A stretch of DNA of 64,000 nt from Heterodontus francisci (taxonomy: Eukaryota), in contig NC_090410.1 of NCBI RefSeq assembly GCF_036365525.1, positions 12,134,062 through 12,198,061 on the forward strand. The letters run 5' to 3'. Each line of letters opens with the position of its first letter. Position 1 is the first letter of the stretch. Under the pieces are notes generated by a model that saw only the letters and a list, made by a program, of their open reading frames with translations, was not told where the DNA came from and searched no databases. The translations under genes and the position numbers were made by a program. Of this stretch, positions 2,763-57,784 are shown one piece after another.

Positions 2763-2958
2763 CTGAAAATCCAGAATCTTTCTCCGACTCTCCAAGCAAC
2801 ACCCGTTGGTTCTTCCCAACACTTCCCATAGGATTTCTTTTCTCGGCTTGTCCATACCGACCATCTGGCAAATTCTCCAATTTGACCGACACCCTGCTCA
2901 TCCCCTCCTTCAGACCTTTGCTGGAGCCTTTGGCCATGGGCAATTTATCCAGAGACAT
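2763..2958 (-). CDS. CIPC-like (CLOCK-interacting pacemaker family) first coding exon; gene continues beyond the left edge
   Basis: MSLDKLPMAK...LLGESEKDSGFS(D) ends at donor CAG|GTAATG in phase 1; human CIPC has AESDKDSGFSD at the end of its short N-terminal region; tandem acceptors would start the exon at 2964 or 2971. Confidence 0.7.
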
Positions 2959-3139
2959 GTTTCACTGAAGGCTGAAGTATTCAGAATGAAAAGGATTATT
3001 ATTCATTGCATTTGGAATTGGAATGCAAACGACAGCATTTCTAATACATCGAGGCAACGCAATTTAAATCTGCTCATTCGGTCCCTCCATGTATCCTTAG
3101 ACGGACCTGGCATTGTTCTTTTCTTCCCCCTTTCCATCT

Positions 3140-3845
3140 TTTTCGATAAGGATATAAAGGCACTGGAGAAGAGGCAATGAGGTTTACAAGGGCAATGCCA
3201 GAACTGAGAGGTTATAGTCATCAGAAAAGGCTGGGCCTCTAGAAAAGAGAAGGCCGAGAGGTGACCTAATAAAACTTACAAACAGGTTTGTTATGATAGG
3301 TGTAGAGACAATGTTTCCAATTGTGGGGGAGTCCAAAACTAAGGGTCATAAATATAAAAGATATTCACTAATGAGTCCAACAGGGAATTCAAGAGAAATT
3401 TCTTTACCGGAGAACTGTTACACTGTTCACTGCCTGAAGGGGTGGTACAGGCAGAAATCCTCACAGCATTTAAGAAGTATTTCGATGAGCATTTGAAACG
3501 CCATAGCATACAAGGCTACGGGCCAAGTCTGGGAAAATGGGATTAGAATGGATGGGTACTTGATGGTCGACACGTTGGGCCGAAGGGCCTGTTTCTGTGC
3601 TGTATAACTCTATGACTCTCTCTACCTATGACAATTTGGAACATCTCACCACATGGAATAGTTGAGGCAAGTAGCTTGAAGCATTTAAGGGAAAACTAGA
3701 TACGTACAGGAGGGAGAAAGGAACAGAAGGTTATGCTGATAGGGTTAGATGATGGAAGACGGGAGGAAGCTTGCGTGAAGCTTAAACACCGGCATGAACC
3801 AGTTGGGCCAAATGGCCTCTTTCTGTGTTGTACATTCTATGTAAT
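3140..3845 (+). mobile_element. Nested degenerate CR1 3' fragments
   Basis: MFPIVGESKTKGH-like segment and GGGCCGAAGGGCCTGTTTC 3' end. Confidence 0.75.
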
Positions 3846-4714
3846 TATTTGGTCTCCTCGAGCGAGCATGCAGATTAGCGATTTATTCACCGTCCCTGCC
3901 CAGCACTGGTCTACTAGAAAGTGACAAGAGCTCTCCAAAGTGACTGGACGAGGGCCAGCTTTCCACAAACAGCACAACTGGCCAGATGCAGAATGCAATC
4001 TACGGTGAGCATGCTCAAGCAAACCAGTTGGGATTTTATTTTGAAAAAAAAAATAAAGACACTCAAATGGGAAAGATCATAAATTAACTGCATAATTTTT
4101 CACCGGGCATCCGAGTTTCTGTTTCTTCTTGAAATTATAACCGGTAAAGAAGCCTGCATAACACAGGCGAAGCAACATTTAGGCAGTCACCAGCCTCTGC
4201 ATAGAAGCAGCCATTGTGGTTTAATCTGCAATCCACTCAGAGAGCACAGAGAGACTGAATGAAATGTAAAATCTAAATTTAATTTAAAGGGAATCAGAAC
4301 AAAGTGATTTTTAAAAATGCAACCTACAGACAATTTAAATAACAGGCCCCCTGCTATAGCAGTTTCTTCTGCTCAAGGCCCTGCAGGGGGTACATGCTGG
4401 TATTTTTAACCACTCGGTCCCTGCTTTCTCTCAGTAATGGATCAGGGACAAATACAATCCTGGTCTTGAATATTGGTTTCCAATTCTGCATAGAGTTCCT
4501 CCTCTTCCCCCATCCAGACCTGCCGAAGCAGCACAAACTGAACTATGTCCTCCCCGATAAACAGTTCATTAAATTTTTTCTTTAAATAAACTAATCCCAT
4601 ATCGAGTACAGATGCAACATCACCAACAGCCCCCTCCCCAGAACACTTGGCAATTCAGTCCATGTTTACTGGAAACTGCCCACTTACTTAACTCAATTCC
4701 TTATCTCCCACTCC

Positions 4715-7700
4715 ACCCCACATTAACCACGCCAGACCCCCAGCCTTTGCCCACTCCCCCCCACATTAAACCCACCAGCATTAATCCCCCCCAGCTTTTG
4801 CTCCCTCCGTTAACCACTCCAAGCCTTGCCCCCCTCCATTAACGTCACCCACCGCCCCCCCCCCACCCCCAGCAACCCACCCCAGCCTTGGCTGCACCCC
4901 ACCCATTAACCCCCGAGCCTTTGCCCCCCCCCCCCCACCCGCACATTAACACCCCCCCCAGCCTTGGGGCCCCCCTCTCCAAATTAATCCCCCCCCCACA
5001 TTAACCCCGCAGCCTTGCCCCCACTGCACATTTACCCCTCCAAGCCATATCCCCGCACCCCCAGCCTTGTCCCCCATCCACATTAACCATCGCCCCCACC
5101 CTGCACATTAACCTCCCCCCACCCCCCAGCCTTGGACTCCCTCCAGATTAACCACCCCCCAGCCTTGGCCCTCCTCCACATTAAGCAGCCCCCAAGCCTT
5201 GCCCCACCCCTGCACATTAACCCTCCCACAAGCCTTGCCTCCCTGCACATTGGCCCCCCCTCCACATTAAAACCCCCCCAACACAATAACCCCCCTCAGC
5301 CTTGGCCCCCCTGCACATTAACCCCTCCAAGCCTTGCCCCCCCCGCACATTAATCCCCACCCAGCCTTAGCCCCCCTCCCCATTAACCCCTACCCTCCAA
5401 GCCTTGCCACCCCGCCACATTAACCCCCCCCAAGATTTGCACCCCCTCACATTAACCCACCAGCCTTGCACCTGCACATTAACCCCACCCCCCCAACCTT
5501 AGCCCCCCCTCTACATTAATCCCCCATCCAGCCTTGGCCCACCCTCCACATTAAACCCACCCCCCTCCAGCCTTGGCCCCCCTCCACATTAAACCCACAC
5601 CCCCTCCAGCCTTGGCCCCTCTCCACATTAACCCCCCCAAGCCTTGCACCCCTGCACATTAACCCCTCCCCCCCCTCCAGCCTTGCCCCCTTGTACATTA
5701 ACCCCCCCCAGCCTTGGCCCCCCTCCACATTAAACCCAGCCCCCCCAGCCTTGGCCCCCCCCTCCACATTAAACCCCCCACCAGCCTTCGCCCCCCCTCC
5801 ACATTAAACCCCCCACCAGCCTTCGCCCCCCCTCCACACTAACTCCCCCGCCTGCACCCCCGCACATTACCCCCCGCCCCAAGCCTTGCCCCCTTGTACA
5901 TTAAACCCACCCAAGCCTTGTCCCCCTCCACATTAATTCCCCCCCACCCCCCAAGCCTTGGCCCCCCTCCACATTAATTCCCCCCCCCTCCACATTAATT
6001 TCCCCCCCAAAGCTTTGGCCCCCCCGAGCCTTGGCCCCCCTCCACATTAACCCCCCACCCCCCCCAGCCTTGCCCCCTTGTACATTAACATCCCCCAAGC
6101 CTTGTCCCCCCCTCCACATTAATACCCCCCCCCAGCCTTGGGCCCCCTCCACATTAATTCCCCCCCACCAAGCCTTGGCCCCTTGTACATTAATCCCCCC
6201 CAAGCCTTGCACCCCTGCACATTAACCGTCCAGCCTTGGACCCCCTCCAGATTAAACAACCCCAGCCTTGGCCCCCCCCCCCACTCCCCTCCACATTAAG
6301 CAGCCCACGAGCCTTGCCTACCTGCACATTGGCCCCCCCCCCCACACACATTAACCCCCCCAGCGTTGCCCCACTGAAAATTAACCCCCCCAGACCTGCC
6401 CCACTGTACATTAAGCCCCCCCAAGCCATGGCCCCCCAAAAGCCTTATCCCCGCTCCACATTAACCCCCCCCCCCTCCAGCCTTGGCTCCCCCGCACATT
6501 AAACTCCCTCCAGCCTTGCCCCCACCTCCACATTAACCCCACCCCCAGCCCTGCCCTCCTCCACATTAACCCCGCCCCCATCCACATTAATCCCCACCCC
6601 CCAGCCTTGGCCCCCCTCCACATAACCCCACCCCCCCTTCCACTACAGGCTTGGCCCCCCTCCACATTAATTCCCACCAGCTGTGGCTCCCCCTCCACAT
6701 TAAACCCCCTCCAGCCTTGGTCCCCCCCTCCACATTAACCCCCCCCCCCACACACACGGCCCCCCTCAAGATTCTCTCCCCCCCCTAGCCGTGGCTCCCC
6801 CTCCACATTAACCCCCCCCGCACATTAAACCCCCTCCAGCCATTGCCCCCCTCCACATTAACCCCCCCAGCCTTGGCACCCCTCCACATTAACCCTACCC
6901 CCCCGCCACAGGCTTGGCCCCCCCTCCCCCCTCCAGCCATGGCTTCCCCCCCCACATTAACAACCCCCCCACATTAAACCCCCTCCAGCCTTGGCCCCCT
7001 CCTCCACATTAACCCCCCTCCCTATTCAGCCTTGCCCCCCCTCCCCATTAACCCCCCCACCCAGCCTTAACCCCCCCCTATTCAGCCTTGCCCCCCTCCC
7101 CATTAACCCCCCCCCTCAGCCTTGCCCCCCCTCCCACTCAGCCGTGCCCCCCATCCCCATTAACCCCCCCCACTCAGCCTTGCCCCCCCCTCCCCTCCAC
7201 ATTAACCCCCCCACCCAGCCTTGCCCCCCCTCCCCTCCACATTAACCCCCCCACCCTGCCTTGCCCCCCACTCCACAATAACACCCCCACCCAGCCTTGC
7301 CCCCCCCTTCCACATTAAGCCCGCCCACCCAGCCTTGCCCCCCACTTCCACATTAACCTCCCCACCCAGCCTTGCCCCCTCCCTTCCACATTAACCCCCC
7401 CACCCAGCCTTGCCGCCCCTTCCACATTAACCCCCCCACCCAGCCTTGCCGCCCCTTCCACATTAACCCCCCCACCCAGCCTTGCCGCCCCTTCCACATT
7501 AACCCCCCCACCCAGCCTTGCCGCCCCTTCCACATTAACCCCCCCCACCCATGCCCCCCCTTCCACATTAACCCCCCCCACCCAGCCTTGCCCCCCCTTC
7601 CACATTAACCCCCCCCACCCAGCCTTACCCCCTCCCTTCCACATTAACCCCCCCTTCCACATTAACCCCCCCCCTTCCACATTAACCACCCCCACCCAGT

Positions 7701-9692
7701 CTTACCCCCCTTCCACATTAACCCCCCCACCCAGCCTTGCCCCCCATTCCACATTAACCCCCCCACCCAGCCTTGCCCCCCATTCCACATTAACCCCCCC
7801 ACCCAGCCTTGCCCCCCCTTCCACAGTAACCCCCACCCAGCCTTGCCCCCCTTCCACATTAACCCCCCCAAGCCAGCCTTGCCCCCCTTCCACATTAACC
7901 CCCCCAAGCCAGCCTTGCCCCCCTTCCACATGAACCCCCCCCAAGCCAGCCTTGCCCCCCCTTCCACATTAACCCCCCCCAAGCCAGCCTTGCCCCCCCT
8001 TCCACATTAACCCCCCTCAAGCCAGCCTTGCCCCCCCTTCCACATTAACCCCCCCCACCCAGCCTTGCCCCCCCTCCACATTAACCCCCCCACCCAGCCT
8101 TGCCCCCTCCCTTCCACATTAACCCCCCCACCCAGCCTTGCCCCCTCCCTTCCACATTAACCCCCCCACCCAGCCTTGCCCCCTCCCTTCCACATTAACC
8201 CCCCCACCCAGCCTTACCCCCCCTTCCACATTAACCCCCCCCACCCAGCCTTACCCCCACTTCCACATTAACCCCCCCACCCAGCCTTGCCCCCTCCCTT
8301 CCACATTAACCCACCCCCACCCAGCCTTGCCCCCTCCCTTCCACATTAACCCCCCCCACCCAGCCTTACCCCCCCTTCCACATTAACCCCCCCCCACCCA
8401 GCCTTACCCCCCCTTCCACATTAACCCCCTCCACCCAGCCTTACCCCCCCCTTCCACATTAACCCCCTCCACCCAGCCTTACCCCCACTTCCACATTAAC
8501 CCCCTCCACCCAGCCTTACCCCCCCCTTCCACATTAACCCCCCCCACCCAGCCTTACCCCCCCTTCCACATTAACCCCCCCACCCAGCCTTACCCCCCCT
8601 TCCACATTAACCCCCCCACCCAGCCTTACCCCCCCTTCCACATTAACCCCCCCCACCCAGCCTTACCCCCCCCCACTTCCACATTAACCCTCCCTCCCAC
8701 CCACCCAGCCTTGCCCCCCCCACTTCCACATTAACCCTCCCTCCCACCCAGCCTTGCCCCCCCCCACTTCCACATTAACCCTCCCTCCCACCCAGCCTTG
8801 CCCCCCCCCACTTCCACATTAACCCTCCCTTCCACCCAGCCTTGCCCCCCCTTCCACATTAACCACCCCCACCCAGTCTTACCCCCCTTCCACATTAACC
8901 CCCCCACCCAGCCTTGCCCCCTCCCTTCCACATTAACCCCCCCACCCAGCCTTGCCCCCTCCCTTCCACATTAACCTCCCCACCCAGCCTTACCCCCCCT
9001 TCCACATTAACCCCCCCACCCAGCCTTGCCCCCTCCCTTCCACATTAACCCCCCCACCCAGCCTTGCCCCCTCCCTTCCACATTAACCCCCCCCACCCAG
9101 CCTTACCCCCCCTTCCACATTAACCACCCCCACCCAGCCTTACCCCCTCCCTTCCACATTAACCCCCCCCACCCAGCCTTACCCCCCTTCCACATTAACC
9201 ACCCCCACCCAGCCTTACCCCCCCTTCCACATTAACCCCCTCCACCCAGCCTTACCCCCCTACCCAGCCTTACCCCCCTTCCACATTAACCCCCCCCACC
9301 CAGCCTTACCCCCCTTCCACATTAACCCCCCCACCCAGCCTTACCCCCCCTTCCACATTAACCCCCCCCACCCAGCCTTACCCCCCCTTCCACATTAACC
9401 CCCCCACCCAGCCTTACCCCCCCTTCCACATTAACCCCCCCCACCCAGCCTTACCCCCCCTTCCACATTAACCCCCCCCACCCAGCCTTACCCCCCCTTC
9501 CACATTAACCCCCCCACCCAGCCTTACCCCCCCTTCCACATTAACCCCCCCCACCCAGCCTTGCCCCCTCCCTTCCACATTAACCCCCCCACCCAGCCTT
9601 GCCCCCTCCCTTCCACATTAACCCCCCCACCCAGCCTTGGCCCCACCCCGCACATTAAACACTAAACCTTGACCCATTAACCGCCCCCAGCC
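4715..9692. repeat. ~5 kb C-rich minisatellite, unit ~36-38 bp (CCACATTAACCCCCCCACCCAGCCTT(G/A)CCCCCCCTT)
   Basis: Directly visible tandem array, degenerate on the left and homogeneous on the right. Confidence 0.97.
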
Positions 9693-10100
9693 TTTGTCCC
9701 CACTATCCTCGCCATCTGTCAGCGACCGTCGACCGGAGCCGCGAGGCCCAACCCGACCTCAGGCCTTCTCTCCCTCGAACGGCGGTAACACTTCGTTTTT
9801 GTCCCAGATCCCAATAGTAAATCCTGCCCACTCCGGCCACCTACCTCCCGCTGCCGCTCGCTCTATCCTTCGCCTTTCATCCAAACCTGCTGCAAACACC
9901 TCACCCCGCCTCCCTCCGATTGACAACCGCTCGGACCAATGGGAAGCCGGTGCCTTCAGCGTTCCCACCAATGGCAGAGGCGCTGCCCCCCCGCAGCAAG
10001 TGCTTGGCTCTCGTGCTCTGCCTCGTGAGGGCGGTGCGATTGATTGACAGTTTCCATGGCGATAGGACGCACGCGCCCCTCCTCGGGCTCTGCAACGTGA
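9690..10100 (-). promoter_or_regulatory. CpG-rich promoter and probable non-coding first exon (donor GAG|GTAGGT after 9845) of the CIPC-like gene
   Basis: High CpG density; CCAAT at 9936 and 9968; TGATTGACAG at 10041-10050; X-box-like GTTTCCATGGCGAT at 10050-10063; GC boxes. Confidence 0.6.
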
Positions 10101-10895
10101 CCAGGCTGCAAATACAAACAGCAGCAGGGAATGCTGCTTGCAGCCCTAAAGCAGGGGCAGGGAATTGTGCAAAGCTGGACACAGGATATAATGTACACTG
10201 TGTAACACAGGGGCAGAGAAATAATGCAAACTGTGTAACCCAGGGCCAGAGGAATAATGTTAACTGTAACCCAGGGACAGGGCTTAGAGCAAACATGCGA
10301 ATCCGGAGATAGGAGACAGTGCAAACCACAAATTATGACGTGAGCAATAGTGCAAATACTACAATTCGTGGTAAAGCAAAGTGACAACTGGACCTGGGAG
10401 GCAAAGCAAGTCGGAAAGGAAGAATTAACTATAACCGTCACAATGGGTAACAACTGAGCAGGCAGCAGGATGGAAACGTGATGTTTAAGGTGATGACTGT
10501 CGTGTTGGGAGAGTTGCCGTTTAGTACAGCTGCAAGCCAGGATACCGCAGCTCTCAAAGCTTATGGACCTGCTTTAATATTTATGCCTTTCCTTCATCTC
10601 CTTAACCAACTGGGAACAGAATAAAGCTTGATAAGATGCAATCAAATACTGTTGGATATCAAAGGTTATCACTCTGTGCCAGTTATCAGAGAACCACAGG
10701 GCAGAATTCCAGTTCCAGGGAATGTATGTTAAACTATCAATGTGCACAAAGACACAACAGATATAAAACTAATTGTAATTATACAACAGTTATAAGCCAT
10801 CAGTACATTCTAGAGATGTTTTGAAATCCAATTCCTTTTCGGGTTTAAACAATGATTCTCAAAATCTTAAAATTAGCTTGTTTTATTCATTTATT

Positions 10896-14138: not shown

Positions 14139-14169
14139 TTAGAGACTCCTCCTTCTTGCTGTGGGGCAT
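14139..14169 (-). CDS. VEGF/PlGF-family exon 7 (terminal, CPTARRRSL*)
   Basis: Long pyrimidine tract-CAG acceptor; resembles PlGF CGDAVPRR / VEGFA CDKPRR; the seven exons total 495 nt = 164 aa + stop. Confidence 0.85.
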
Positions 14170-14757: not shown

Positions 14758-14823
14758 TGGTTAAGCTCAGACATGTCTCCCATCTTTGTGCGCCTCCTCT
14801 GACCTTTCCTCTTGACGTTTCTC
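14758..14823 (-). CDS. VEGF/PlGF-family exon 6, basic heparin-binding cassette
   Basis: ctttcag| RNVKRKGQRRRTKMGDMSELN(Q) |GTGAGT; 66 nt, symmetric phase 2/2, analogous to the PlGF-2 basic exon. Confidence 0.85.
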
Positions 14824-14949
14824 CTGAAAGAACAAATGCGTCTCTTGAGAAAAAGATGGGGAAGGTTCAGGTTTTAAAGAAAGATTTTTGTAGGCGGGTT
14901 TCTTAAGTCCTGGAGTTTGTTGTTCCAGAAGCAGAAATTCTTCCTGTAC

Positions 14950-14979
14950 CTTTCACCTTTCAATCGTTTCCGCCGTGGT
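14950..14979 (-). CDS. VEGF/PlGF-family exon 5
   Basis: (T)n-TAG| (R)PRRKRLKGE(R) |GTACAG; 30 nt as in VEGFA/PGF exon 5. Confidence 0.88.
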
Positions 14980-20569: not shown

Positions 20570-20766
20570 CTGTATTGTTACGTTGTACATCTCCCGTGCT
20601 GTGCACCGCAGCTTCTCATCCCCACAGCAGCCGGCACATCGCAAGAGAGGAACGCAGGAGGGCTTGAAGATGTACTCAGACTCACTCGGAAACTCTCGGA
20701 CAACATCTACCAGCACCTCAATGGTTCGGCAGTAACTGCGATTCCAAACCTCCTCGAATGGCATCA
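20570..20766 (-). CDS. VEGF/PlGF-family exon 3, PDGF/VEGF cystine-knot domain
   Basis: (V)[65 protein letters not shown] contains the PSCVxxxRCxGCC signature; 197 nt, the size of VEGFA/PGF exon 3; ctcag| and |GTGAGG sites. Confidence 0.97.
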
Positions 20767-30360: not shown

Positions 30361-32576
30361 AAAGAACAAAGAACAAAGAAAATTACAGCACAGGAACAGG
30401 CCCTTCGGCCCTCCAAGCCTACGCCGATCCAAATCCTCTATCTAAACCTGTCGCCCATTTTCTAAGGGTCTGTATCTCTTTGCTTCCTGCCCATTCATGT
30501 GTCTGTCTAGATACATCTTAAAAGACGCTATCGTGCCCGCGTCTACCACCTCCACTGGTAATGCATTCCATGCACCCACCACCCTCTGCATAAAGAACTT
30601 TCCACGCATATCCCCCCTAAACTTTTCCCCTCTCACTTTGAACTCGTGTCCCCTTGTAATTGAATCCCCCACTCTGGGAAAAAGCTTCTTGCTATCCACC
30701 CTGTCTATACCTCTCATGATTTTGTACACCTCAATCAGGTCCCCCCTCAACCTCTGTCTTTCTAATGAAAATAATCCTAATCTACTCAACCTCTCTTCAT
30801 AGCTAGCGCCCTCCATACCAGGCAACATCCTGGTGAACCTCCTCTGCACCCTCTCCAAAGCATCCACATCCTTTTGGTAATGTGGCGACCAGAACTGCAC
30901 GCAGTATTCCAAATGTGGCCGAACCAAAGTCCTATACAACTGTAACATGACCTGCCAACTCTTGTACTCAATACCCCGTCCGATGAAGGAAAGCATGCCG
31001 TATGCCTTCTTGACCACTCTATTGACCTGCGTTGCCACCTTCAGGGAACAATGGACCTGAACACCCAAATCTCTCTGTACATCAATTTTCCCCAGGACTT
31101 TTCCATTTACTGTATAGTTCACTCTTGAATTGGATCTTCCAAAATGCATCACCTCGCATTTGCCCTGATTGAACTCCATCTGCCATTTCTCTGCCCAACT
31201 CTCCAGTCTATCTATATTCTGCTGTATTCTCTGACAGTCCCCTTCACTATCTGCTACTCCACCAATCTTAGTGTCGTCTGCAAACTTATGTATATCACAA
31301 ACAACAGTGGTCCCAGCACGGATCCCTGTGGAACACCACTGGTCACACGTCTCCATTTTGAGAAACTCCCTTCCACTGCTACTCTCTGTCTCCTGTTGCC
31401 CAGCCAGTTCTTTATCCATCTAGCTAGTACACCCTGGACCCATGCGACTTCACTTTCTCCATCAGCCTACCATGGGGAACCTTATCAAACGCCTTACTGA
31501 AGTCCATGTATATGACATCTACAGCCCTTCCCTCATCAATCAACTTTGTCACTTCCTCAAAGAATTCTATTAAGTTGGTAAGACATGACCTTCCCTGCAC
31601 AAAACCATGTTGCCTATCACTGATAAGCCCATTTCCTTCCAAATGGGAATAGATCCTATCCCTCAGTATCTTCTCCAGCAGCTTCCCTACCACTGATGTC
31701 AGGCTCACCGGTCTATAATTACCTGGATTTTCCCTGCTACCCTTCTTAAGCAAGGGGACATTATTAGCAATTCTCCAGTCCTCCGGGACCTCACCCGTGT
31801 TTAAGGATGTTGCAAAGATATCTGTTAAGGCCCCAACTATTTCCTCTCTCGCTTCCCACAGTAACCTGGGATAGATCCCATCCGGACCTTGGGACTTGTC
31901 CACCTTAATGCCTTTTAGAATACCCAACACTTCCTCCCTCCTTATGCTGACTTGACCTAGAGTAATCAAACATCTGTCCCTAACCTCAACATCCGTCATG
32001 TCCCTTTCGTCGGTGAAAGTACTCGTTTAGAATCTCACCCATTTTCTCTGACTCCACGCATAACTTTCCTCCTTTGTCCTTGAGTGGGCCAATCCTTTCT
32101 CTAGTTACCCTCTTGCTCCTTATATATGAATAAAAGGCTTTGGGATTTTCCTTAACCCTGTTTGCTAAAGATATTTCATGACCCCTTTTACCCCTCTTAA
32201 TTCCTCGTTTCAGATTGCGCCTACAATCCCGATATTCTTTCAAAGCTTCGTCTTTCTTCAGCCGCCTAGACCTTATGTGTGCTTCCTTTTTCCTCTTAGC
32301 TAGTCTCACAATTTCACCTGTCATCCATGGTTCCCTAATCTTGCCATTTCTACCCCTCATTTTCACAGGAACATGTCTCTCCTGCACGCTAATCAACCTC
32401 TCTTTAAAAGCCTCCCACATATCAAAAGTGGATTTACCTTCAAACAGCTGCTCCCAATCTACATTCCCCAGCTCCTGCCGAATTTTGGTATAGTTGGCCT
32501 TCCCCCAATTTAGCACTCTTCCTTTAGGACCACTCTCGTCTTTGTCCATGAGTATTCTAAAACTTACGGAAGTTTT
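30361..32576 (-). mobile_element. 5'-truncated CR1 LINE (ORF2 RT region) with (TTCTTTG)n tail and AGATC target-site duplication
   Basis: RT motifs in ORFs 30442-32549; tail AAAGAACAAAGAAC on +; AGATC at 30356-30360 and 32577-32581. Confidence 0.93.
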
Positions 32577-32665: not shown

Positions 32666-35600
32666 GATCAGGGAGGGAGACAGAAAGCAGGAAACTACAG
32701 GCCAGTTAGCTTAACGTCTGTCGTAGGGAAAATGTCAGAAGCTATTAAAGAGATTATAAAATGGCACTTAGAAACATTCAAGGTAATCAGGCAGAGTCAG
32801 CCTGGTTTTGTGAAAGGGAAATCATGTTTAAACCAATTTATTGGAGTTCTTTGAAGTAGTAACATGTGCCGTGGATAAAGGGGAACCGGTGGATGTACTG
32901 TACTTAGATTTCCAGAGGTGCCACATCAAAGGTTATTGCACAAAATAAAAGCTCATGGTGTAGGGGGTAACATATTGGCATGGATAGAAGACTGGCTAGC
33001 TAACAGGAAACAGAGAGTAGGCATAAATGGGTCATTTTCTGGTTGGCAGGATGTAATGAGTGGTGTGCCACAGGGATCAGTGCTGGGGCCTCAACTTTTT
33101 ACCATTTCTATCAATGACTTGGATGAAGGGACCGAAGGTATGGTTGCTAAGTTTGCTGATGACAAAGATAGGTAGGAAAGTAACTTGTGAAGAGGACATA
33201 AGGAGGCTACAAAGGGATATAGATAGGTTAAGTGGGTGGGCAAAGATCTGGCAAATGTAGTATAATGTGGGAAAATGTGAAATTGTCCACTTTGGCAGGA
33301 TGAATAAAAAAGAAACATATTATCTAAATGGTGAGAGATTGCAGAGCTGAGATGCAGAAGGATCTGGTGTTCCCGTGCATGAATCACAAACAGTTAGTAT
33401 GCAGGTACAGAAAGTAATTAAGAAGGCTAATAGAATGTCATCCAGGGAGAAGACTCAGAGGGCGGAGTTCCGGATTGGCAAGTATAAAAACTTTACCTCA
33501 GGGATTCGCGGCCGACATCCAGGGAGAAAACTCGGAGGGTGGAGTTTCGGACTGGTAAGTTACCTCGGGTAAAAAAAAACTGAAAAAGTGACGTCACAGG
33601 AAAGCTGTGACCTGATTGGCTGGTAGGGAATCTATACTGAATTTGAAAATAAAACATTGATTAAAACCCTAATTAACTAATTAATTAACTAATTAATTAA
33701 TAAGTAGAGGAGTAACTAAACCGGAGGGAGATTACTGTATTTAGCATTTAATATTTATAGTAGAAATCTAGCACTAGGGACCATATAGTTAATTGTAACT
33801 TAATTTATTAAGGATTTAATAAATATTTAAGTATTTATTTTAAATTAATTTATTAATTAGTGCTAGAAATGTCAGTTAGAGGGGTGAATTGCTTCACCTG
33901 TGAGATGTGGGAGGTCCATGACGCTTCCAGCGTTCCGGATGACTACATCTGCAGGAAGTGTACCCAGTTGCAGCTCCTCACAGACCACATGGATCAGTTG
34001 GAGCAGCAATTGGATGCACTTAGGAGCATGCAGGTGGCAGAAAGCGTCATAGACAGGAGTTTTAGAGAAGTGGTTACACCCAAGGTGCAGGCAGATAGAT
34101 GGGTGACCGCTAGAAGGGGCAGGCAGTCAGTGCAGGAATCCCCTGTGGCTATCCCCTCTCTAACAAGTATACCGTTTTGGATACTGTTGGGGGGGGAAAT
34201 GGCCTATCAGGGGAAAACAACAGCAGCAGCCAGAGCAGTGGCACAACGGCTTGCTCTGTTGTTCAGCAGGGAGGGACAAAGCGCAGAAGAGCAATAGTTA
34301 TAGGGGACTCTATAGTCAGGGGCACAGATAGGCGCTTCTGTGGACATGAAAGAGACTCCAGGAAGGTATGTTGCCTCCCTGGTGCCAGGGTCAAGGATGT
34401 CTCTGAACGGACAGGGGGCATTCTGAAGGGGGATGGTGAACAGCCAGAGGTTGTGGTACACATTGGTACTAAAGACATAGTCAGGAAGAGTGTCGAGGTC
34501 CTGCAGGGGGAGTTCGGGGAGTTCAGGGAGTTAGGTAGAAAGTTAAAAGACAGGACCTCTAGGGTTGTAATCTTGGGATTATTCCCTGTGCCACATGCCA
34601 ATGTGGCTAGAAGTAGGAAGATAGTGCAGATAAACATGTGGCCGAACAGCTGGTGTAGGAGGGAGGGTTTCAGATATCTGGATCATTGGGATCTCTTCAG
34701 GGACAGGTGGGACCTATACAAGAAGGACGGGTTGCATCTAAACTGGAGGGGCACACATATCCTGGCTGCGAGGTTTGCTAGCGTCACGCGGGAGGGTTTA
34801 AACTAGTGTGGCAGGGGGGTGGGAACCAGAGCAGTAGGACAGCAAGTGAAATAACTGAGGGGGAACGAGTAAATAAGGCCAGTAAGACTAAGAGGAAGAG
34901 CAGGCAGGGAGATGTTGCTGAGCACAGCGGGACTGGTGGTCTGAAGTGCATTTGTTTCAATGCGAGAAGTATAACAGGTAAGGCAGATGAACTTAGAGCT
35001 TGGATTAGTACTTGGAACTATGATGTTGTTGCTATTACAGAGACTTGGTTGAGGGAAGGACAGGATTGGCAGCTAAATTATTCCGGGATTCAGAAGCTTC
35101 AGGCGGTATAGAGGGGGATGTAAAAGGGGTGGGGGAGTTGCATTACTGGTTAAGGAGAATATCACAGCTGTACTGCGGGAGGACACCTCGGAGGGGTCAT
35201 GTTGCGAGACAATATGGGTAGAGCTCAGGAATAGGAAAGGTGCTGGGGGTTTACTAAGACTTCCCAACAGCCAGCGGGAGGTAGAGGAGCAGATATGTAG
35301 ACAGATTCTGGTAAGATGTAAAAGCAACAGGGTTGTAGTGGTGGGTGATTTTAACTTCCCCTATATTGACTGGGACTCACTTAGCGCTAGGGGCTTGAAT
35401 GGGGCAGAATTTGTAAGGAGCATCCAGGAGGGCATCTTGAAACATTATGTAGATAGTCCAACTAGGGATGGGGCCTTACTGGACCTGGTATTGGGGAATG
35501 AGCCCGGTCAGGTGGTCGAAGTCTCAGTAGGGGAGCATTTCAGGAACAGTGACCATAATTCCATAAGTTTTAAGGTACTTGTGGATAAGGATAAGAGTAG

Positions 35601-38308
35601 TCCTCGAATGAAGGTGCTAAATTGGGGGAAGGCTAATTATAAAAATATTAGGCAGGAACTGAAGAATTTAGATTGGGGGCGGCTATTTGAGGGTAAATCA
35701 ACATCTGCAATGTGGGAGTCCTTCAAACATCAGTTGATTAGAATCCAGGACCAGCATGTTCCTGTGAGGAAGAAGGATAAGTTTGGCAAGTTTCGGGAAC
35801 CTTGGATAACGAGGGATATTGTGAGCCTCGTCAAAAAGAAAAAGGAAGCATTCGTAAGGGCTGGAAGGCTCGGAACAGACGAAGCCCTTGAGGAATATAA
35901 AGACAGTAGGAAGGAACTTAAGCAAGGAGTCAGGAAGGCTAAAAGGGGTTATGAAAAGTCATTGGCAAACAGGATTAAGGAGAATCCCAAGGCTTTTTAT
36001 ATGTATACAAAGAGCAAGAGGGTAGCCAGGGAAAGGGTTAGCCCACTCAAGGACAGAGAAGGGAATCTATGTGTGGAGCCAGAGGAAATGGGTGAGGTAA
36101 TAAATGAGTACTTTGCATCAGTATTCACCAAAGAGAAGGACTTGGTGGATGATGAGTCTAGGGAAGGGAGTGTAGATAGTCTGGGTCATGTCGTTATCAA
36201 AAAGGAGGAGATATTGGGTGTCTTGCAAAGCATTAAGGTAGATAAGTGCCCAGGGTCTGATGGGATCTACCCCAGAATACTGAGGGAGGCAAGGGAGGAA
36301 ATTGCTGGGGCCTTGACAGCAATTTTTGTATCCTCATTGGCTACAGGTGAGGTCCCAGAGGACTGGAGAATAGCCAATGTTGTTCCTATGTTTAAGAAGG
36401 GTGGCAAGGATAATCCAGGAAATTATAGGCCGGTGAGCCTTATGTCAGTGGTAGGGAAACTATTAGAGAGGATTCTTCGGGACAGGATTTACTCCCATTT
36501 GGAAACAAATGGACTTATTAGCGAGAGACAGCATGGTTTTGTGTCTCACTAATTTGACTGAGTTTTTTGAGGAAGTGACAAAGATGATTGATGAAGGAAG
36601 GGCAGTGGATGTTATTATATGGGCTTCAGTAAAGCCTTTGACAAGGTCCCTCATGGCAGACTGATACAAAAGGTGAAGTCACATGGGATCAGAGGGGAGC
36701 TGGCAAGATGGATACAGAACTGGCTCGGTCATAGAAGACAGAGGGTAGCAGTGGAAGGGTGCTTTTCTGAATGGAGGGATGTGACTAGTGGTGTTCCGCA
36801 GGGATCAGTGCTGGGACCTTTGCTCTTTGTAGTATACATAAATGATTTGGAGGAAAATGTAGCTGGTCTGATTAGTAAGTTTGCGGACGACACAAAGGTT
36901 GGTGGAGTTGCGGATAGTGTTGAGGATTGTCAGAGGATACAGCAGGATATAGATCGGTTGGAGACTTGGGTGGAGAAATGGCAGATGGAGTTTAATCCGG
37001 ACAAATGTGAGGTAATGCATTTTGGAAGATCTAATACAGGTGGGAAGTATACAGTAAATGGAAGAACCCTTAGGAGTATTGACAGGCAGAGAGATCTGGG
37101 CGTACAGGTCCACAGGTCACTGAAAGTGACAATGCATGTGGATAAGGTAGTCAAGAAGGCATACGGCATGCTTGCCTTCATCGGTCGGGGCATAGAGTAT
37201 AAAACTGGCAAGTCATGCTGCAGCTGTACAGAACTTTAGTTAGGCCACACTTAGAATATTGCGTGCAATTCTGGTCGCCACACTACCAGAAGGATGTGGA
37301 GGCTTTGGAGAGGGTACAGAAGAGGTTTACCAGGATGTTGCCCGTTCTGGAGGGCATTAGCTATGAGGAGAGGTTGGATAAACCCGGATTATTTTCACTG
37401 GAACGACGGAGGTGGAGGGGGGACATGATAGAGGTTTACAAAGTTATGAGTAGCATGGACAGAGTGGATAGTCAGAAGCTTTTTCCCCAGGATGGAAGAG
37501 TCAGTTACTAGGGGACATAGGTTTAAGGTGCGAGGGGCAAAGTTTAGAGGGGATGTGCGAGGCAAGTTCTTTACACAGAGGGTGGTGAGTGCCTGGAACT
37601 TGCTGCCAGGGGAGGTGGTGGAGGCAGGTACGATAGCGACGTTTAAGAGGCATCTTGACAAATACATGAATAGGATGGGAATAGAGGGACACGGACCCCG
37701 GAAGTGCAGAAGGTTTTAGTTTAGGCAGGCATCAAGATTGGCGCAGGGTTGGAGGGCCGAATGGCCTGTTCCTGTGCTGTACTGTTCTTTGTTATTTTAT
37801 CGCAAGGGGAATTGAATACAAAAGTAGGGAGTTTATGCTTCAGTTATACAGGGCATTGGTGAGACCACATCTGGAGTACTGTGTACAGTATTGGAATTTA
37901 GAAAAGTAAGAGGTGACTTGATTGAAACATATAAGATTCTGAGGGGTCTTGACAGGGTGGATGTGGAAAGGATGTTTCCCCTTGTGGGAGAATCTAGAAC
38001 TAGGGGTCACTGTTTAAAAATAAGGGGTTGCCCATTTAAGACAGAGATGAGGAAAAAAAAAATTTCTGTCAGAGGATCGAGAGTCTTTGGAATTCTCTTC
38101 CTCAAAAGGCGGAGGAAGCAGAGTCTTTGACTATTTTTAAGGCAGAGGTAGATAAGATTCTTGATGAGCAAGGGGTGAAAGGTTATCGGGTAGGTGGGAA
38201 TGTGGCGTTGAGGTTACAATCAGATCAGCCATGATCTTGTTGAATGGCGCAGCAGGCTCGAGGGGCCGAGTGGCCTACTCCTGCTCCTAATTTGTATGTT
38301 CGTATGTA
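32666..38308 (+). mobile_element. Older CR1 RT fragment split by the 33439-37793 insertion (pieces 32666-33438 and 37794-38308)
   Basis: GCTAATAGAATGT | TATTTTATCGCAAGGGG is contiguous in the related copy near 39700 (- strand). Confidence 0.85.
33439..37793 (+). mobile_element. Near full-length CR1-clade LINE (5'UTR, ORF1 Cys-motif + SGNH esterase, ORF2 APE endonuclease + RT), frameshifted
   Basis: ORF1 CFTCEMW...CRKC and IVIGDSIVRG; ORF2 [48 protein letters not shown]; 3' tail TGTTCTTTGT. Confidence 0.95.
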
Positions 38309-38746: not shown

Positions 38747-38815
38747 CTGACAGATGGGCAAGAGCAGCAGCAGTAGAGCAGCAGCTGGACAGGGCAAAGG
38801 GCCGATCCAACACAT
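38747..38815 (-). CDS. VEGF/PlGF-family growth factor exon 1 (signal peptide)
   Basis: GCG-ATG MCWIGPLPCPAAALLLLLLPICQ |GTATGT; hydrophobic signal peptide, 69 nt, phase 0 as in VEGFA/PGF exon 1; GC boxes just upstream. Confidence 0.75.
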
Positions 38816-38824
38816 CGCCACAGG

Positions 38825-38935
38825 TCCCTAGGGAAGGACGTGCGGGGCGGAGATGGGTAACTCAGGGCGGAGATGGGTAAGGCAAGGCGTCAAATCAAGA
38901 GGATCAAGTGGGGCAAGGACCTGGGGGCGGGGGAG
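38825..38935 (-). promoter_or_regulatory. GC-box-rich proximal promoter / 5'UTR of the VEGF-family gene
   Basis: Three GGGCGG boxes, a duplicated GGGCGGAGATGGGTAA and an ACGTG core at 38838-38842, all just upstream of the ATG. Confidence 0.45.
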
Positions 38936-45415: not shown

Positions 45416-45594
45416 TCTGTGAATATTAGTGAGTGAGAATGAGTGAACAAATAAGTGTGTGTATCTGAGTGAGAGTGACTGGGGTTAACTTTGGATGGTA
45501 GTGTACAACAGGTGATATCAAAGCACCCAATTTTGGGTCCTGGGGCTCGCTTGGCGAGCTGCTGAGACTCCCCAGACATCTCACTGGCAAAGAG

Positions 45595-47037
45595 GATTTC
45601 AAATACCTGCAATGTGGAAAATTGCCCAGGTATGTCCTGGACACAAAAAGCAGGACAAGTCCAACCTGGCCAATTACCGCCCCATCAGCCTACTCTCAAT
45701 CATCAGTAAAGTGATGGAAGGTGTCATCAACAGTGCCATCAAGCAGCACTTGCTTAGCAATAACCTGCTCAGTGACGCTCAGTTTGGGTTCCGCCATGGC
45801 CACTCAGCTCCTGACCTCATTACGGCCTTGATTCAAACATGGACAAAAGAGCTGAACTCAAGAGGTGAGGTCAGAGTGACTGCCCTTGACATCAAGGCAG
45901 CATTTGACCGAGTATGGCATCAAGGAGCCCTGGCAAAACTGGAGTCAATGGGAATCAGGGGGAAAACACTCCGCTGGCTGGAGTCATACCTAGCGCAAAG
46001 GAAGATGGTTGTGGTTGTTGGAGGTCAATCATCTGAGCTCCAGGACATCACTGCAGGAGTTCCTCAGGGTAGCGTCCTAGGCCCAACCATCTTCAGCTGC
46101 TTCATCAATGACCTTCCTTCAATCATAAGGTCAGAAGTGCGGATGTTTGCTGATGATTGCATAATGTTCAGCACCATTCGTGACTCCTCAGATACTGAAG
46201 CAGTCCGTGTAGAAATGCAGCAAGACCTGGACAATATCCAGGCTTGGGCTGATAAGTGGCAAGTAACATTCACGCCACACAAGTGACCATCTCCAACAAG
46301 AGAGAATCTAACCATCTCCCCTTGACATTCAATGGCATTACCATTGCTGAATCCCCCACAATCAACATCCTAGGGGCCACTATTGACCAGAAACTGAACT
46401 GGAGTAGCCATATAAATCCCGTGGCTACAAGAGCAGGTCAGAGGCTAGGAATCCTGCGGTGAGTAACTCACCTCCTGACTCCCCAAAGCCTGTCCACCAT
46501 CTACAAGGCACAAGTCAGGAGTGTGATGGAATACTCTCCACTTGCCTGGATGGGTACAGCTCCAACAACACTCAAGAAGATCGACACCATCCAGGACAAA
46601 GCAGCCCGCTTGATTGGCACCCCATCTACAAACATTCACTCCCTCCACCACCGACGCTCAGTGGCAGCAGTGTGTACCATCTACAAGATGCACTGCAGCA
46701 ATGCACCAAGGCTCCTTAGACAGCACCTTCCAAACCCGCGACCTCGACCAACTAGAAGGACAAGGGCAGCAAATGCATGGGAACCCCACCACCTGCAAGT
46801 TCCCCTCCAAGCCACACACCATCCTGACTTGGAACTATATCGCCGTTCCTTCACTGTCGCTGGGTCAAAATCCTGGAACTCCCTTCCCAACAGCACTGTG
46901 GGTGTACCTACCTCACGTGGACTGCAGCGGTTCAAGAAGGCAGCTCCCCACCACCTTCTCAAGGGCAATTAGGGATAGGAAATAAATGCTGGCCTGGCCA
47001 GCAACGCCCACATCCCATGAATGAATAAAAAAAAAAT
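45595..47037 (+). mobile_element. 5'-truncated non-LTR retrotransposon (CR1/L2 superclade, distinct family): RT region with ATGA repeats and A tail
   Basis: [45 protein letters not shown]; ends CCCATGAATGAATAAAAAAAAA. Confidence 0.92.
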
Positions 47038-53721: not shown

Positions 53722-54177
<456 letters not shown>

Positions 54178-54429: not shown

Positions 54430-54765
<336 letters not shown>

Positions 54766-55184
54766 TCACACATCCACTCCGATAGGCCCTGCTCCCTTGA
54801 CCCTTCCCCTCAATGCATCAACACTGAACCCCTCCCAAAACATCATCATCCCCAGATTTCCACATCCTCACTCAAACCCTGCACCTCTGGCCCAAGCTCA
54901 AATCCAGTCCAGACTCGAGATTAAAAAATCCGAATGAATTTAGTACAGTGTAGAGGAAACCTTATCTGCATCTAACTTTTTTTTGAAAAAGGGAGCCTCA
55001 CTTCAACATTACCTCTCCTAGAATGGTCAATGAGTCAGTAGAGGGAGCTTTACTCTGTATCTAACCCCTTGCTATACCTGTCCTGAGTGTGTTTGATGGA
55101 GACAGTGTAGAGAGAGTTTACTCTTGCTGTTTTGGGCTTCACTGATATTCAACCTGCCTGAGCTGAAATTCACTCCATTCCCAA

Positions 55185-55622
55185 TCATAATCATCATCTT
55201 TGGCCTCCTTGTCTCGAGAGACAATGGGTAAGCACCTGGAGGTGGTCAGTGGTTTGTGAAGCAGCACCTGGAGTGGCTATAAAGGCCAATTCTAGAGTGA
55301 CAGACTCTTCCACAGGTGCTGCAGATAAAATTGGTTGTCGGGGCTGTTACACAGTTGGCTCTCCCCTTGCGCCCGTCTTTTTTTCCTGCCAACTGCGAAG
55401 TCTCTTCGACTCGCCACACTTTAGCCCCGCCTTTATGGCTGCCCGCCAGCTCTGGCGATCGCTGGCAACTGACTCCCACGACTTGTGATCAATGTCACAG
55501 GATTTCATGTCGCGTTTGCAGACGTCTTTAAAGCGGAGACATGGACGGCCGGTGGGTCTGATACCAGTGGCGAGCTCGCTGTACAATGTGTCTTTGGGGA
55601 TCCTGCCATCTTCCATGCGGCT
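55185..55622 (-). mobile_element. RTE-like LINE 3' fragment in fosB intron 2
   Basis: RMEDGRIPKDTLYSEL...GRPCLRFKDVCKRDMK...WESVASDRQSWR, C2H2-like CSTCGRVCHSRIGLYSHSR, (GAT)n-like tail. Confidence 0.85.
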
Positions 55623-55741
55623 ATACCCACATTAATTAAAATATAAAAAACATCTTTGACCTGATGAAATTGACCTTTGCCATGTGAGAGTTTCTGTCAT
55701 GGTTCAGCTCTGTACACAGCACGGTTCACATTCTCACTCAC

Positions 55742-56023
55742 CGTTTCATCTCTGGACCTCCGAGAGCGGCTGGGCCGGGTGGGCTTTGACGGCTCGGCCC
55801 TGCTATAGGAGCACATGCCTGGGGTGGAATAGCTTGTCCCGGGGAGGTTGTATGGATCCATGGTGGGCTGGGGCAGGGCTGGAAGCTGAGCCTGAGACTG
55901 AGATGGAGCCGCTGAGGAAATGATAGTTGGTTGAACCATCCACTGTAGTTCCTGGCTGGTTGTGATGGCAGTCAGGGTTGGCACAAAGGATCCCGGCATC
56001 TCCCCAATGCCCGTAGTACACTC
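55742..56023 (-). CDS. fosb: FosB exon 2 (94 codons)
   Basis: ttccag| [33 protein letters not shown]...[15 protein letters not shown]...RRSRDET |GTGAGT; [10 protein letters not shown] and [10 protein letters not shown] are FosB-type motifs; 282 nt, phase 0/0. Confidence 0.95.
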
Positions 56024-57094
56024 CTGGAATAGATGGGAATGTAGTACATTTAAAAATGGGGCTGGGGGTGTGGACTGGGAATTGGGAAGGCTGAGGACTA
56101 GAGGCAACAAAATGGCCATGGGAATGCAAGAACCTGAACACAGGGCCGGGAGCACAAGACACGTCACTACAAACAAACACTGAAGGTGTTCAGCAGAGGA
56201 TTGAAGGGAGCTGTCCCAGTGATTGTGCTAGGACAAGCTATATGGAGTCATGTCCCCCTTTCCTTTCCCCCCCACCCACCTCCCCTCCCCTCCCAGTTAA
56301 GTCATAAAAACCCATCTGGTTTGCTAATGTCCTTACCCCAGTCTGGCCTACACATGACTCCAGACCCACAGCAATGTGGTTGACTCTCAGTCAGGGCACC
56401 CAGAGTAGGTCAGCAGTCCAAGGGAGGGCAATGTGCAACATAAATACAAGTTTCTATTATGGAACATTTCCTAACAGTTACTATTCCCTCTGGACTCTCT
56501 GCACCCCTCTCCCAATCCCACCGCTTCCATTCGTTCTGCTTGATCCCTTGAACCAAGTCAAGAGATGAGCTACATGGTGCTCCATTGGGATGGACAGGAG
56601 CTGACAACCCCTGGAAGCTTTACAGGGCTATGGGGAAAGAGCAGGGGAGTGGGACTAATTGGATAGCTCTGCCAGAGAGCTGGCACAGGCACAATGGGCC
56701 GAATGGGCTCCCTGAGTTGTAGCATCCGACGACAAGGGAGCCTCATCAAGCTAAAAATCACATTGTTATGGTGTATTCAACTGGCAGGATTCGCCCCCTC
56801 CCCCATTCGGAGCCCAACCCACGCTGCCCTGTCAAGGAAGTTTGCATTTATAGATCACTTTTATCAAGTCCCCCCCCCCCCCAAAAAAAAAACAAGCTTC
56901 ACTTTCACAAGCATTGGCTGGGACATCTGGAAATGGTCCCGGTTATTCTCTGCAAATAATGGTGCAAAACTGCTGAATTCAGCAAGGATTGAGGTTCTAG
57001 GTTGCAAGCCACACGGGGGTAAAGCAGCTGTCACTCAGAGCCCGCCACTTCCATTCGCAAAAAAGCAACAATGCGCGTCCAGGCTGTGGGCGGG

Positions 57095-57260
57095 ACCGAG
57101 AGACCGCGTAGCTGCCTAGCAACGTTCCAAAATAGAACGTCGCCGACGTCAGCACGTCGCACCGACGCGGGGGAGGAAGGGGGCGGGGCGGGCGTGTGCG
57201 TAACGTCACCAGGAGCATTCCAATACGTCAACCTTTACGCACGTAAACCCAGTCTGGGGG
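57095..57260. promoter_or_regulatory. CpG-rich motif cluster in fosB intron 1 (candidate enhancer)
   Basis: Three ACGTCA CRE half-sites, GC box GGGGCGGGGC, X-box-like GCTGCCTAGCAAC, MEF2/CArG-like CCAAAATAGA and near-palindrome TTTACGCACGTAAA within ~160 bp. Confidence 0.55.
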
Positions 57261-57655
57261 CAAACGTGAGGTTTCCAGTCTGCGGGAAATCGGTGCAACT
57301 AATCGCAGAGAAAAAGGAAACCGATACTAATCGATGCCAGGGCTCGGAATGCAGCGCCGGGGACCCATATCGGGTGTGCAACTTGGGTTTCTGATCAATT
57401 ATTTTGCACAATTCCACCCCCCTCCCTTAAAAGAGCAGCCACCGCTTGCACAATTCAGCTAGACATTGCTGCATTTTTTTTTTGTTTCTTTTTGGCAGGG
57501 ATCAATAGACAATTTGCTGCCAGCAATTTCCTCACCTTCGCTGCGGAAATAGTCCCCGGGGATGGAAAGTTGGGGTCTCCCCTCTCACTTTAACTCCAAC
57601 CATCCCAGCACAAGCTACAACACGCAAGTTCCCCCTGGTTCAAACTCCCACTTAC

Positions 57656-57784
57656 CTGGGCTGTGGTGGTCGGGCTGCCCACACTCTGACTGAAGGAATC
57701 CACGGATGACAGGTACTGAGGCTCCGAGGGGGACGAACTGCAGCGGGAAGCCGAGTCAAAGTCGCCTGAGAATCCCTGGTACAT
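57656..57784 (-). CDS. fosb: FosB exon 1 (coding part, 43 codons)
   Basis: MYQGFSGDFDSASRCSSSPSEPQYLSSVDSFSQSVGSPTTTAQ matches the FosB N-terminus (human MFQAFPGDYDSGSRCSSSPSAESQYLSSVDSF); donor CAG|GTAAGT, phase 0. Confidence 0.95.

What the first reader, a model, noticed from the sequence alone, without database searches (positions are those of the whole stretch)
2763..57784. CIPC-like / PlGF-like / fosB co-oriented block mirrors human CIPC-PGF-FOS
Seen: three minus-strand genes within 55 kb. Established: CIPC, PGF and FOS all map to human 14q24.3. The Fos gene here is FosB-type, so the block looks like a retained paralogous segment with two genes that mammals lack at the FOSB locus, including a possible second CIPC-family circadian repressor. 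The CIPC call rests on one short motif plus intron phase.
Basis: partly seen in the sequence, partly recalled or inferred. Interest (0 to 1): 0.7.

Follow-up and report, generated by a model that had tools for sequence, protein, structure and literature searches.

The report
Shark FOSB–VEGF–CIPC ancient duplicate block
A shark keeps, right beside its FosB gene, an old duplicate of a blood-vessel growth-factor gene and of a body-clock repressor gene that mammals seem to have lost, and the growth factor appears to belong to the same lineage that vipers later turned into a venom component.

Summary
The three co-oriented minus-strand genes are real: fosB (324 aa), a 7-exon VEGF (164 aa) and a CIPC-like gene. 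The CIPC-like exon is identical to a horn-shark RefSeq protein with a full CiPC domain (251 bits). Trees split CIPC into two old paralogues. The window gene is in clade B (sharks to lizards and ostrich), while mouse CIPC scores closer to clade A. Clade A sits directly behind true pgf in ray-finned fish. The VEGF is not inside the PGF clade in 4 of 4 maximum-likelihood trees. It forms a sister clade ('X') with coelacanth, axolotl, caecilian, turtle and lizard proteins, and with the python protein that the literature calls non-venom VEGF-F. X and CIPC-B share a chromosome in 11 of 12 other species. Best reading: a duplicated (probably whole-genome) twin of the FOS/PGF/CIPC segment, so the VEGF-F lineage predates the shark–bony fish split instead of being a lepidosaur duplication. 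Caveats: viper toxins join X in only 2 of 4 trees, AU tests reject no rival, and loss in mammals and human gene order rest on recall. The genes are already annotated; the orthology reading is the new part.

The parts
57656..57784 (-). fosB coding exon 1 (ATG 57784)
   Evidence: 95% identical to Mobula 'FosB-like' P0113 residues 1-43
55742..56023 (-). fosB exon 2
54634..54741 (-). fosB exon 3 (basic region)
53722..54177 (-). fosB exon 4 (zipper, C-terminal domain, stop); internal GT donor after 54013 and alternative acceptor at 53813 (deltaFosB-like 199-nt internal intron)
   Evidence: the same splice is in Mobula isoforms P0116/P0117
57967..58218 (-). fosB immediate-early promoter motifs: TATA 57967, CRE TGACGTCA 57982-57989, CArG box 58209-58218
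   Evidence: motif scan, (no shuffle control; function inferred)
38747..38920 (-). VEGF first coding exon: AG acceptor before 38920, ATG 38815, 23-aa hydrophobic signal peptide, phase-0 donor
   Evidence: near-identical signal peptide in Mustelus P0013
23084..23105 (-). VEGF exon 2 (22 nt)
20570..20766 (-). VEGF exon 3 (197 nt, cystine-knot core)
   Evidence: Pfam PDGF 65.3 bits
16116..16195 (-). VEGF exon 4 (80 nt, 27-residue segment as in all clade-X and viper rows)
14950..14979 (-). VEGF exon 5 (30 nt; skipped in some shark isoforms)
14758..14823 (-). VEGF exon 6 (66 nt, basic, heparin-binding-like)
14139..14169 (-). VEGF terminal exon to stop
9501..10100 (-). CpG island with three CCAAT boxes: probable CIPC-like promoter and non-coding first exon (inferred)
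   Evidence: CpG o/e 0.77; CCAAT 9811, 9936, 9968; no canonical CACGTG, 3 non-canonical E-box-like sites in 9700-10700
2763..2958 (-). CIPC-like (clade B) first coding exon, 65 codons + 1 nt, phase-1 donor

Best explanation
The block fosB -> VEGF-X -> CIPC-B is the surviving twin of an ancestral Fos-VEGF-CIPC segment that was duplicated before sharks and bony fishes split, most simply in the vertebrate whole-genome duplications. The other twin gave FOS/PGF/CIPC. VEGF-X is a secreted, disulfide-linked cystine-knot growth factor with a basic tail; by its PlGF-like N-terminal helix it is probably a matrix-bound, VEGFR-1-leaning ligand (inferred). It is the orthologue of the non-venom reptile 'VEGF-F' and probably the gene that vipers co-opted. 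CIPC-B is probably a second repressor that binds the CLOCK exon-19 coiled coil through its conserved C-terminal helix (inferred from homology). Shown: gene anatomy, family membership, two paralogue clades for each gene, same-chromosome pairing. Inferred: whole-genome origin, receptor choice, clock repression, loss in mammals.
For: CIPC tree: A|B split 100/100 over 26 rows; coelacanth, gar and bichirs (Polypterus/Erpetoichthys) each appear on both sides. The mouse CIPC fragment (PDB 5VJI) scores coelacanth A 67.6 vs B 58.1 bits, gar A 68.4 vs B 47.0, window protein 49.9. Five ray-fin gene models fuse a PDGF/VEGF domain to a clade-A CiPC domain; the gar one falls in the PGF clade. VEGF trees: X is one side of a branch at 97/88, 97/89, 94/88 with vipers, 96/94 with vipers. 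X includes Python XP_025024072.1, the non-venom VEGF-F named by Rauniyar et al.. Axolotl has both X (P0271) and true PGF (P0019), on different chromosomes. Caecilian accessions are 11 apart. Manta-ray RefSeq models join FosB exons to X. Viper and python/Sceloporus signal peptides share a YLL-A-LFC core.
Against: AU tests reject neither 'shark gene + PGF' (p 0.25) nor 'viper + VEGF-A/B' (p 0.455; p 0.40). Vipers fell beside VEGF-B at weak support (87/39, 87/40) in 2 of 4 trees. The alignments have only 105-136 columns. The 27-residue exon 4 also occurs in 5 of 16 PGF rows, all teleost. No shark PGF, shark clade-A CIPC or full-length mammalian CIPC was retrieved, so the trees lack them. Pelodiscus X and CIPC-B had different contig lengths. 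Same contig is not adjacency, above all for the 1.5-Gb axolotl arm. The FOS link of the pgf-cipc pair was not checked.
Confidence: 0.78

Rival explanations
1. The shark VEGF and CIPC-like genes are the true PGF and CIPC orthologues, moved next to FOSB by rearrangement.
For: Best PDB hit of the Heptranchias orthologue is PlGF (117.5 vs 111.6 bits for VEGF-A). No second shark PGF or CIPC appeared among 101 and 120 listed hits. AU p 0.25. NCBI names many clade-B proteins plain 'CLOCK-interacting pacemaker'.
Against: Axolotl holds both VEGF types; coelacanth, gar and bichir hold both CIPC types, and the shark genes group with X and B. Mouse CIPC prefers clade A in both within-species pairs. Shark VEGF-A was also missing, so missing hits are weak evidence.
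Confidence: 0.1
2. The paralogon is real, but viper venom VEGF-F arose separately (for example from VEGF-A), so the shark gene is orthologous only to the non-venom reptile 'VEGF-F-like' genes.
For: Vipers join VEGF-B/A. Viper exon 3 is no closer to X (0.49) than to A (0.52). Rauniyar et al. favour a VEGF-A origin (supplement legend).
Against: With signal peptides included, vipers nest in reptile X at 95/96. They share exon-4 length and the signal-peptide core. Viper branch is long (0.7-0.9), so attraction is likely. Almeida et al. 2021 report co-option from a PGF-like gene (recalled; paper not held).
Confidence: 0.15
3. The pair arose by a local segmental duplication in early gnathostomes, not by whole-genome duplication.
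For: The trees date the duplication only to before the shark-bony fish split. [quoted passage not shown]
Against: Three unrelated families are duplicated in parallel and the twins lie on different chromosomes in coelacanth, bichir, axolotl and Hemicordylus. 14q24 and 19q13 as 2R paralogons is recalled.
Confidence: 0.12

Closest known systems
Non-venom lepidosaur VEGF-F (Python XP_025024072.1; Rauniyar et al. 2023, PMC10328876)
   Same: Same clade in 4 of 4 ML trees; 27-residue exon 4; PlGF-like N-terminal helix; basic motif after the last cysteine; same chromosome as CIPC-B in Sceloporus.
   Different: That paper places the origin in the Lepidosauria ancestor and calls shark sequences PlGF. 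Here the clade also holds sharks, rays, chimaera, coelacanth, axolotl, caecilians and a turtle.
Placenta growth factor (PGF/PlGF)
   Same: Sister clade (91/87, 96/88, 95/86, 85/76); best PDB hit; 7 exons; basic exon 6; followed by a CiPC gene in ray-finned fish.
   Different: Separate clade; tetrapod and bichir PGF have a 26-residue exon 4; other chromosome in axolotl and Hemicordylus.
Viper venom VEGF-F (Bothrops Q6J936, apiscin)
   Same: Exon-4 length, signal-peptide core shared with reptile X; nests in X in 2 of 4 trees.
   Different: Long branch, VEGF-A-like exon-3 residues, venom-gland-restricted; nothing suggests that the shark protein is a toxin.
Mammalian CIPC (mouse, PDB 5VJI/5VJX) and fish cipca/cipcb
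   Same: Whole PF15800 domain; KDSGFS, YLPIL-IAPHP and SGLL-ITL blocks; C-terminal helix homologous to the CLOCK-bound fragment (E 3e-12).
   Different: Paralogue clade B with its own NTVEIL / L(L/F)C signature; linked to FOSB; no canonical E-box in the 1 kb scanned.
Mammalian FOSB / deltaFosB
   Same: Zipper 31 of 34 identical; 4 exons; internal exon-4 donor; CArG/CRE promoter.
   Different: Followed by two genes not known at the human locus (recalled); in manta rays the internal donor is modelled as splicing into the VEGF.

Membership tests
CiPC family (PF15800) | Pfam CiPC above gathering score over the whole model | tested here: met
   P0001 251.4 bits, model 1-338 of 338; window exon 100% identical to P0001 1-65
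CiPC family (PF15800) | C-terminal helix homologous to the CLOCK exon-19-binding fragment | tested here: met
   5VJI chain C, residues 347-407, E 3e-12, 49.9 bits; individual contact residues not checked
CiPC family (PF15800) | Binds CLOCK and represses CLOCK-BMAL1 | not testable with these tools
CiPC family (PF15800) | E-box-driven rhythmic expression | tested here: inconclusive
   0 CACGTG and 3 non-canonical sites in 9700-10700; no expression data
CIPC orthologue (mammalian CIPC / fish cipca,b) | Groups with clade A and is the closer match to mouse CIPC | tested here: not met
   A|B split 100/100, window in B; mouse fragment prefers A in 2 of 2 within-species pairs; tree has no outgroup or mammal row
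VEGF/PDGF cystine-knot family | PF00341 with eight conserved cysteines | tested here: met
   75.3 bits, model 1-82; Cys 43, 68, 74, 77, 78, 85, 120, 122
VEGF/PDGF cystine-knot family | N-terminal signal peptide | tested here: met
   Hydrophobicity scan found exon 38815-38747; conserved in other sharks; no dedicated predictor run
PGF orthologue | Falls inside the PGF clade | tested here: not met
   Outside PGF in 4 of 4 ML trees; AU does not reject the alternative, p 0.25
VEGF-F (non-venom, as defined by Rauniyar et al.) | One clade with Python XP_025024072.1 | tested here: met
VEGF-F (viper venom) | One clade with viper venom VEGF-F | tested here: inconclusive
   Yes (94/88; 96/94); no; AU p 0.455 and 0.40 for the rival
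VEGF-F (viper venom) | Same locus (FOSB and CIPC-like neighbours) in vipers | not testable with these tools
   No snake genome held; only the B. insularis position is known
VEGF-F (viper venom) | Venom-gland-restricted expression and permeability/hypotensive activity | not tested
   No expression data; not expected for the shark gene
FosB | bZIP closer to FosB than to c-Fos | tested here: met
   44.9 vs 33.1 bits; ray orthologues named FosB; FOSL1/2 not compared
2R ohnologous paralogon | Parallel duplication of linked families before gnathostome radiation, twins on different chromosomes | tested here: inconclusive
   Met for the VEGF and CIPC pairs; FOS link of the twin and chromosome-scale mapping not tested

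The most novel reading that the evidence does not exclude
FOSB-VEGF-F-CIPC2 is a microsynteny older than the shark-bony fish split. [quoted passage not shown] CIPC2 is an unstudied second CLOCK repressor of non-mammalian vertebrates. In the boldest form, the VEGF is also made by read-through from the immediate-early fosB promoter through the deltaFosB donor: as an in-frame FosB-VEGF fusion in manta rays and as a two-ORF message in horn shark.
Probability: 0.55. Interest if true: 0.72.

Novelty: new member of a known kind. Interest (0 to 1): 0.58.

Why it matters
The most recent family survey found here dates VEGF-F to a lepidosaur duplication and leaves its original function open. If this reading holds, the lineage is as old as jawed vertebrates. 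Its ancestral role could then be tested in axolotl, turtles, lizards or catsharks, and shark and coelacanth 'PlGF' annotations would need renaming. A second CIPC would also matter for clock work outside mammals, where database names hide the paralogy: all lizard CIPC hits placed in the tree were clade B.

Tried and rejected
No whole genome was held, so the downstream CIPC exon and wider synteny could not be read as DNA. Pfam on the lone 65-aa CIPC exon gave nothing; the call rests on the full protein record. No RNA reads were laid on the window: 10 runs were listed (none holding half of the words or more by the tool's tally), and expression, deltaFosB splicing and read-through remain untested. 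Exon-4 length as a unique marker was rejected because 5 of 16 PGF rows share it. The AU test 'chondrichthyan CIPC + clade A' (p 0.364) is uninformative: in an unrooted tree this split is also expected under orthology to B. Accession adjacency is loose: the two adjacent horn-shark genes are about 230 numbers apart and the Sceloporus pair about 1,380, so it was used only as a hint for the caecilian. An in-frame FosB-VEGF fusion in horn shark was rejected: the join stops after 30 codons, just before the VEGF ATG. ESM Atlas only confirmed the families. Earlier findings: none returned. Rows left out of trees: one search used 61 CiPC proteins out of the 120 listed (629 found), one search used 26; VEGF trees used 52, 41, 54 and 36 hand-picked rows out of 140 distinct cores; one search dropped 13 rows's set and added 2 viper rows. 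Almeida et al. 2021 was not held. Ten paper searches returned no paper that describes this block, but most subscription papers are not in the library.

Full report
Observation. The window is from a shark: its CIPC-like exon is 100% identical to a RefSeq protein of Heterodontus francisci and its VEGF exons give RefSeq protein P0110 of that species exactly. Three genes lie head to tail on the minus strand. fosB has four exons (57784-53722, 324 aa). The VEGF has seven coding exons (38815-14139; 69, 22, 197, 80, 30, 66 and 31 nt; 164 aa). The CIPC-like gene has a probable promoter near 9.5-10.1 kb and a first coding exon at 2958-2763. The long ORFs between them that I scanned (3 of 3) are LINE reverse-transcriptase fragments.

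Fos gene. The zipper matches FosB at 31 of 34 residues (44.9 bits) and c-Fos at 23 of 33 (33.1 bits). Ray orthologues are named FosB. FOSL1 and FOSL2 were not compared. TATA, CRE and CArG motifs lie upstream. Exon 4 has an internal GT donor after 54013, at the place of the mammalian deltaFosB donor (recalled); Mobula isoforms use it.

CIPC-like gene. The full protein has the whole CiPC model (251.4 bits) and its C-terminus matches the CLOCK-bound mouse CIPC fragment of PDB 5VJI. A profile search found 629 relatives and listed 120. A quick tree of 61 and a careful tree of 26 give two clades (100/100). Clade A holds ray-finned cipca/cipcb and one coelacanth gene. Clade B holds the window gene and proteins of sharks, rays, coelacanth, bichir, paddlefish, bowfin, gar, axolotl, caecilians, turtles, alligator, ostrich, tuatara and lizards. 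Coelacanth, gar and bichirs have both. No full-length mammalian CIPC was retrieved, so I used the PDB fragment: it prefers A over B in coelacanth (67.6 vs 58.1 bits) and gar (68.4 vs 47.0); the window protein scores 49.9. The window gene is thus a paralogue of mammalian CIPC. No mammalian clade-B protein was among the 120 listed hits, which is only moderate evidence of loss. Zebrafish si:ch211-132b12.7 may be the clade-B gene (recalled; two papers show it moving with clock genes, but I did not see its sequence).

VEGF gene. It has a signal peptide, eight cysteines and a tail with 17 K/R in 41 residues. Relatives came from a named search (101 hits) and from the 150 best of 754 representatives. 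In four ML trees the gene lies outside PGF, in a clade X that is sister to PGF. X holds elasmobranchs, Callorhinchus, Latimeria, Ambystoma, caecilians, Pelodiscus, Varanus, Sceloporus, Gekko and Python XP_025024072.1 (names). Rauniyar et al. cite that python accession as non-venom VEGF-F and date VEGF-F to a Lepidosauria duplication (passages). Viper toxins are unstable. They join VEGF-B weakly in the two larger core-only trees and nest in X in the reduced tree (94/88) and in the tree with signal peptides (96/94; reptile subclade 95/96). AU tests reject neither 'viper + A + B' (p 0.455, 0.40) nor 'shark + PGF' (p 0.25). All 16 X rows and 3 viper rows have a 27-residue exon 4, against 0 of 14 VEGF-A rows and 5 of 16 PGF rows. 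No ray-finned fish, bird or mammal protein was identified in X, though not all unnamed representatives were named.

Synteny, indirect. No animal genome could be read, so I used record metadata. X and CIPC-B have equal contig lengths in Heptranchias, Scyliorhinus torazame, Stegostoma, Mustelus, Pristis, Mobula hypostoma, Hypanus, Narcine, Latimeria, Ambystoma and Sceloporus, and differ in Pelodiscus: 11 of 12. Six of these CIPC-like proteins (the Pelodiscus one included) were assigned by similarity, not by tree. Controls: true PGF lies on another contig than CIPC-B in axolotl, Hemicordylus and Polypterus, and on the same contig as cipca in Erpetoichthys. Five ray-fin gene models fuse a VEGF domain to a downstream clade-A CiPC domain, which implies pgf directly upstream of cipc on one strand, the same order as in the window. 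RefSeq models of two Mobula species join FosB to X, which implies the same FosB-VEGF order in rays. The human order PGF-FOS-CIPC over about 2 Mb and the absence of such genes beside human FOSB are recalled.

How it most likely works. One ancestral Fos-VEGF-CIPC segment was duplicated, probably in 2R. Mammals kept PGF and CIPC on the FOS twin and lost both on the FOSB twin; sharks, coelacanth, amphibians and reptiles kept the FOSB twin. VEGF-X is probably a secreted, heparin-binding, PlGF-like ligand. CIPC-B probably binds CLOCK exon 19 and dampens CLOCK-BMAL1; mouse Cipc knockouts show no period change (table passage), so the effect may be modest. The first coding exon of the VEGF begins with a splice acceptor and I saw no CpG island between it and fosB, so read-through from fosB is possible. 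In horn shark that join would stop after 30 codons. This is untested, and RefSeq read-through models can be minor transcripts.

Literature seen. Abstract, outline and passages: bioRxiv 10.1101/2022.09.19.507521. Passages only: PMC10328876, PMC12758475 (46, 48, one supplement search 50), PMC13030222, PMC10797961, PMC6832531, PMC8975721, PMC6062510 (proposes in general that venom genes stem from one of four 2R copies), PMC12285964, PMC9748118, PMC5397488, bioRxiv 10.1101/008474 (92). Title only: Almeida et al. 2021 PNAS and Hou et al. 2017. I recall that Almeida et al. conclude from genomic context that VEGF-F was co-opted from a PGF-like gene. That paper and its supplement, and the tree figures of Rauniyar et al., could not be seen and may already cover part of this claim.

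Verdict. The genes are annotated in RefSeq under '-like' names; the new part is their orthology and age. Interest 0.58.

Noticed in passing
window 54013 (fosB exon 4) and 38920 (VEGF acceptor); proteins P0007, P0112-P0114, P0120, P0122: Two Mobula species have RefSeq FosB-VEGF in-frame read-through isoforms that use the internal exon-4 donor; in the window the same join would stop after 30 codons, just before the VEGF ATG.
   Followed up: partly
window 53813-54013: A deltaFosB-like 199-nt internal intron in fosB exon 4; its spliced product matches the C-terminus of Mobula isoforms P0116/P0117, so this splice may be as old as jawed vertebrates.
   Followed up: partly
window 38747-38817: The ray signal-peptide N-terminus matches another reading frame of the shark exon than the shark signal peptide does, which suggests a frameshift in the leader between sharks and rays.
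   Followed up: no
P0019, P0291 (PGF clade): Axolotl has a true PGF-clade protein, although Rauniyar et al. report no PlGF in amphibians.
   Followed up: partly
P0137, P0146, P0148, P0152, P0155, P0158, P0164, P0169, P0180, P0182, P0184, P0209: All 12 named lepidosaur CIPC hits put in the tree are clade B, most named plain 'CLOCK-interacting pacemaker'; lepidosaurs may have lost clade A (only 120 of 629 hits were visible).
   Followed up: no
window 5117-9638: A C-rich minisatellite of 33-38-nt units (over 100 copies) fills the probable first intron of the CIPC-like gene, right beside its promoter.
   Followed up: no
P0001 record: The identical CIPC-like protein is recorded on 3 contigs with a distant fourth accession (XP_067881292.1), probably assembly duplicates.
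   Followed up: no
window 30445-31419, 35077-36549, 45516-46283: LINE endonuclease/reverse-transcriptase fragments expand the VEGF introns and the fosB-VEGF spacer.
   Followed up: no
window 56997-57400: CpG-rich stretch in fosB intron 1 with three half-CRE sites, a possible intronic regulatory element.
   Followed up: no
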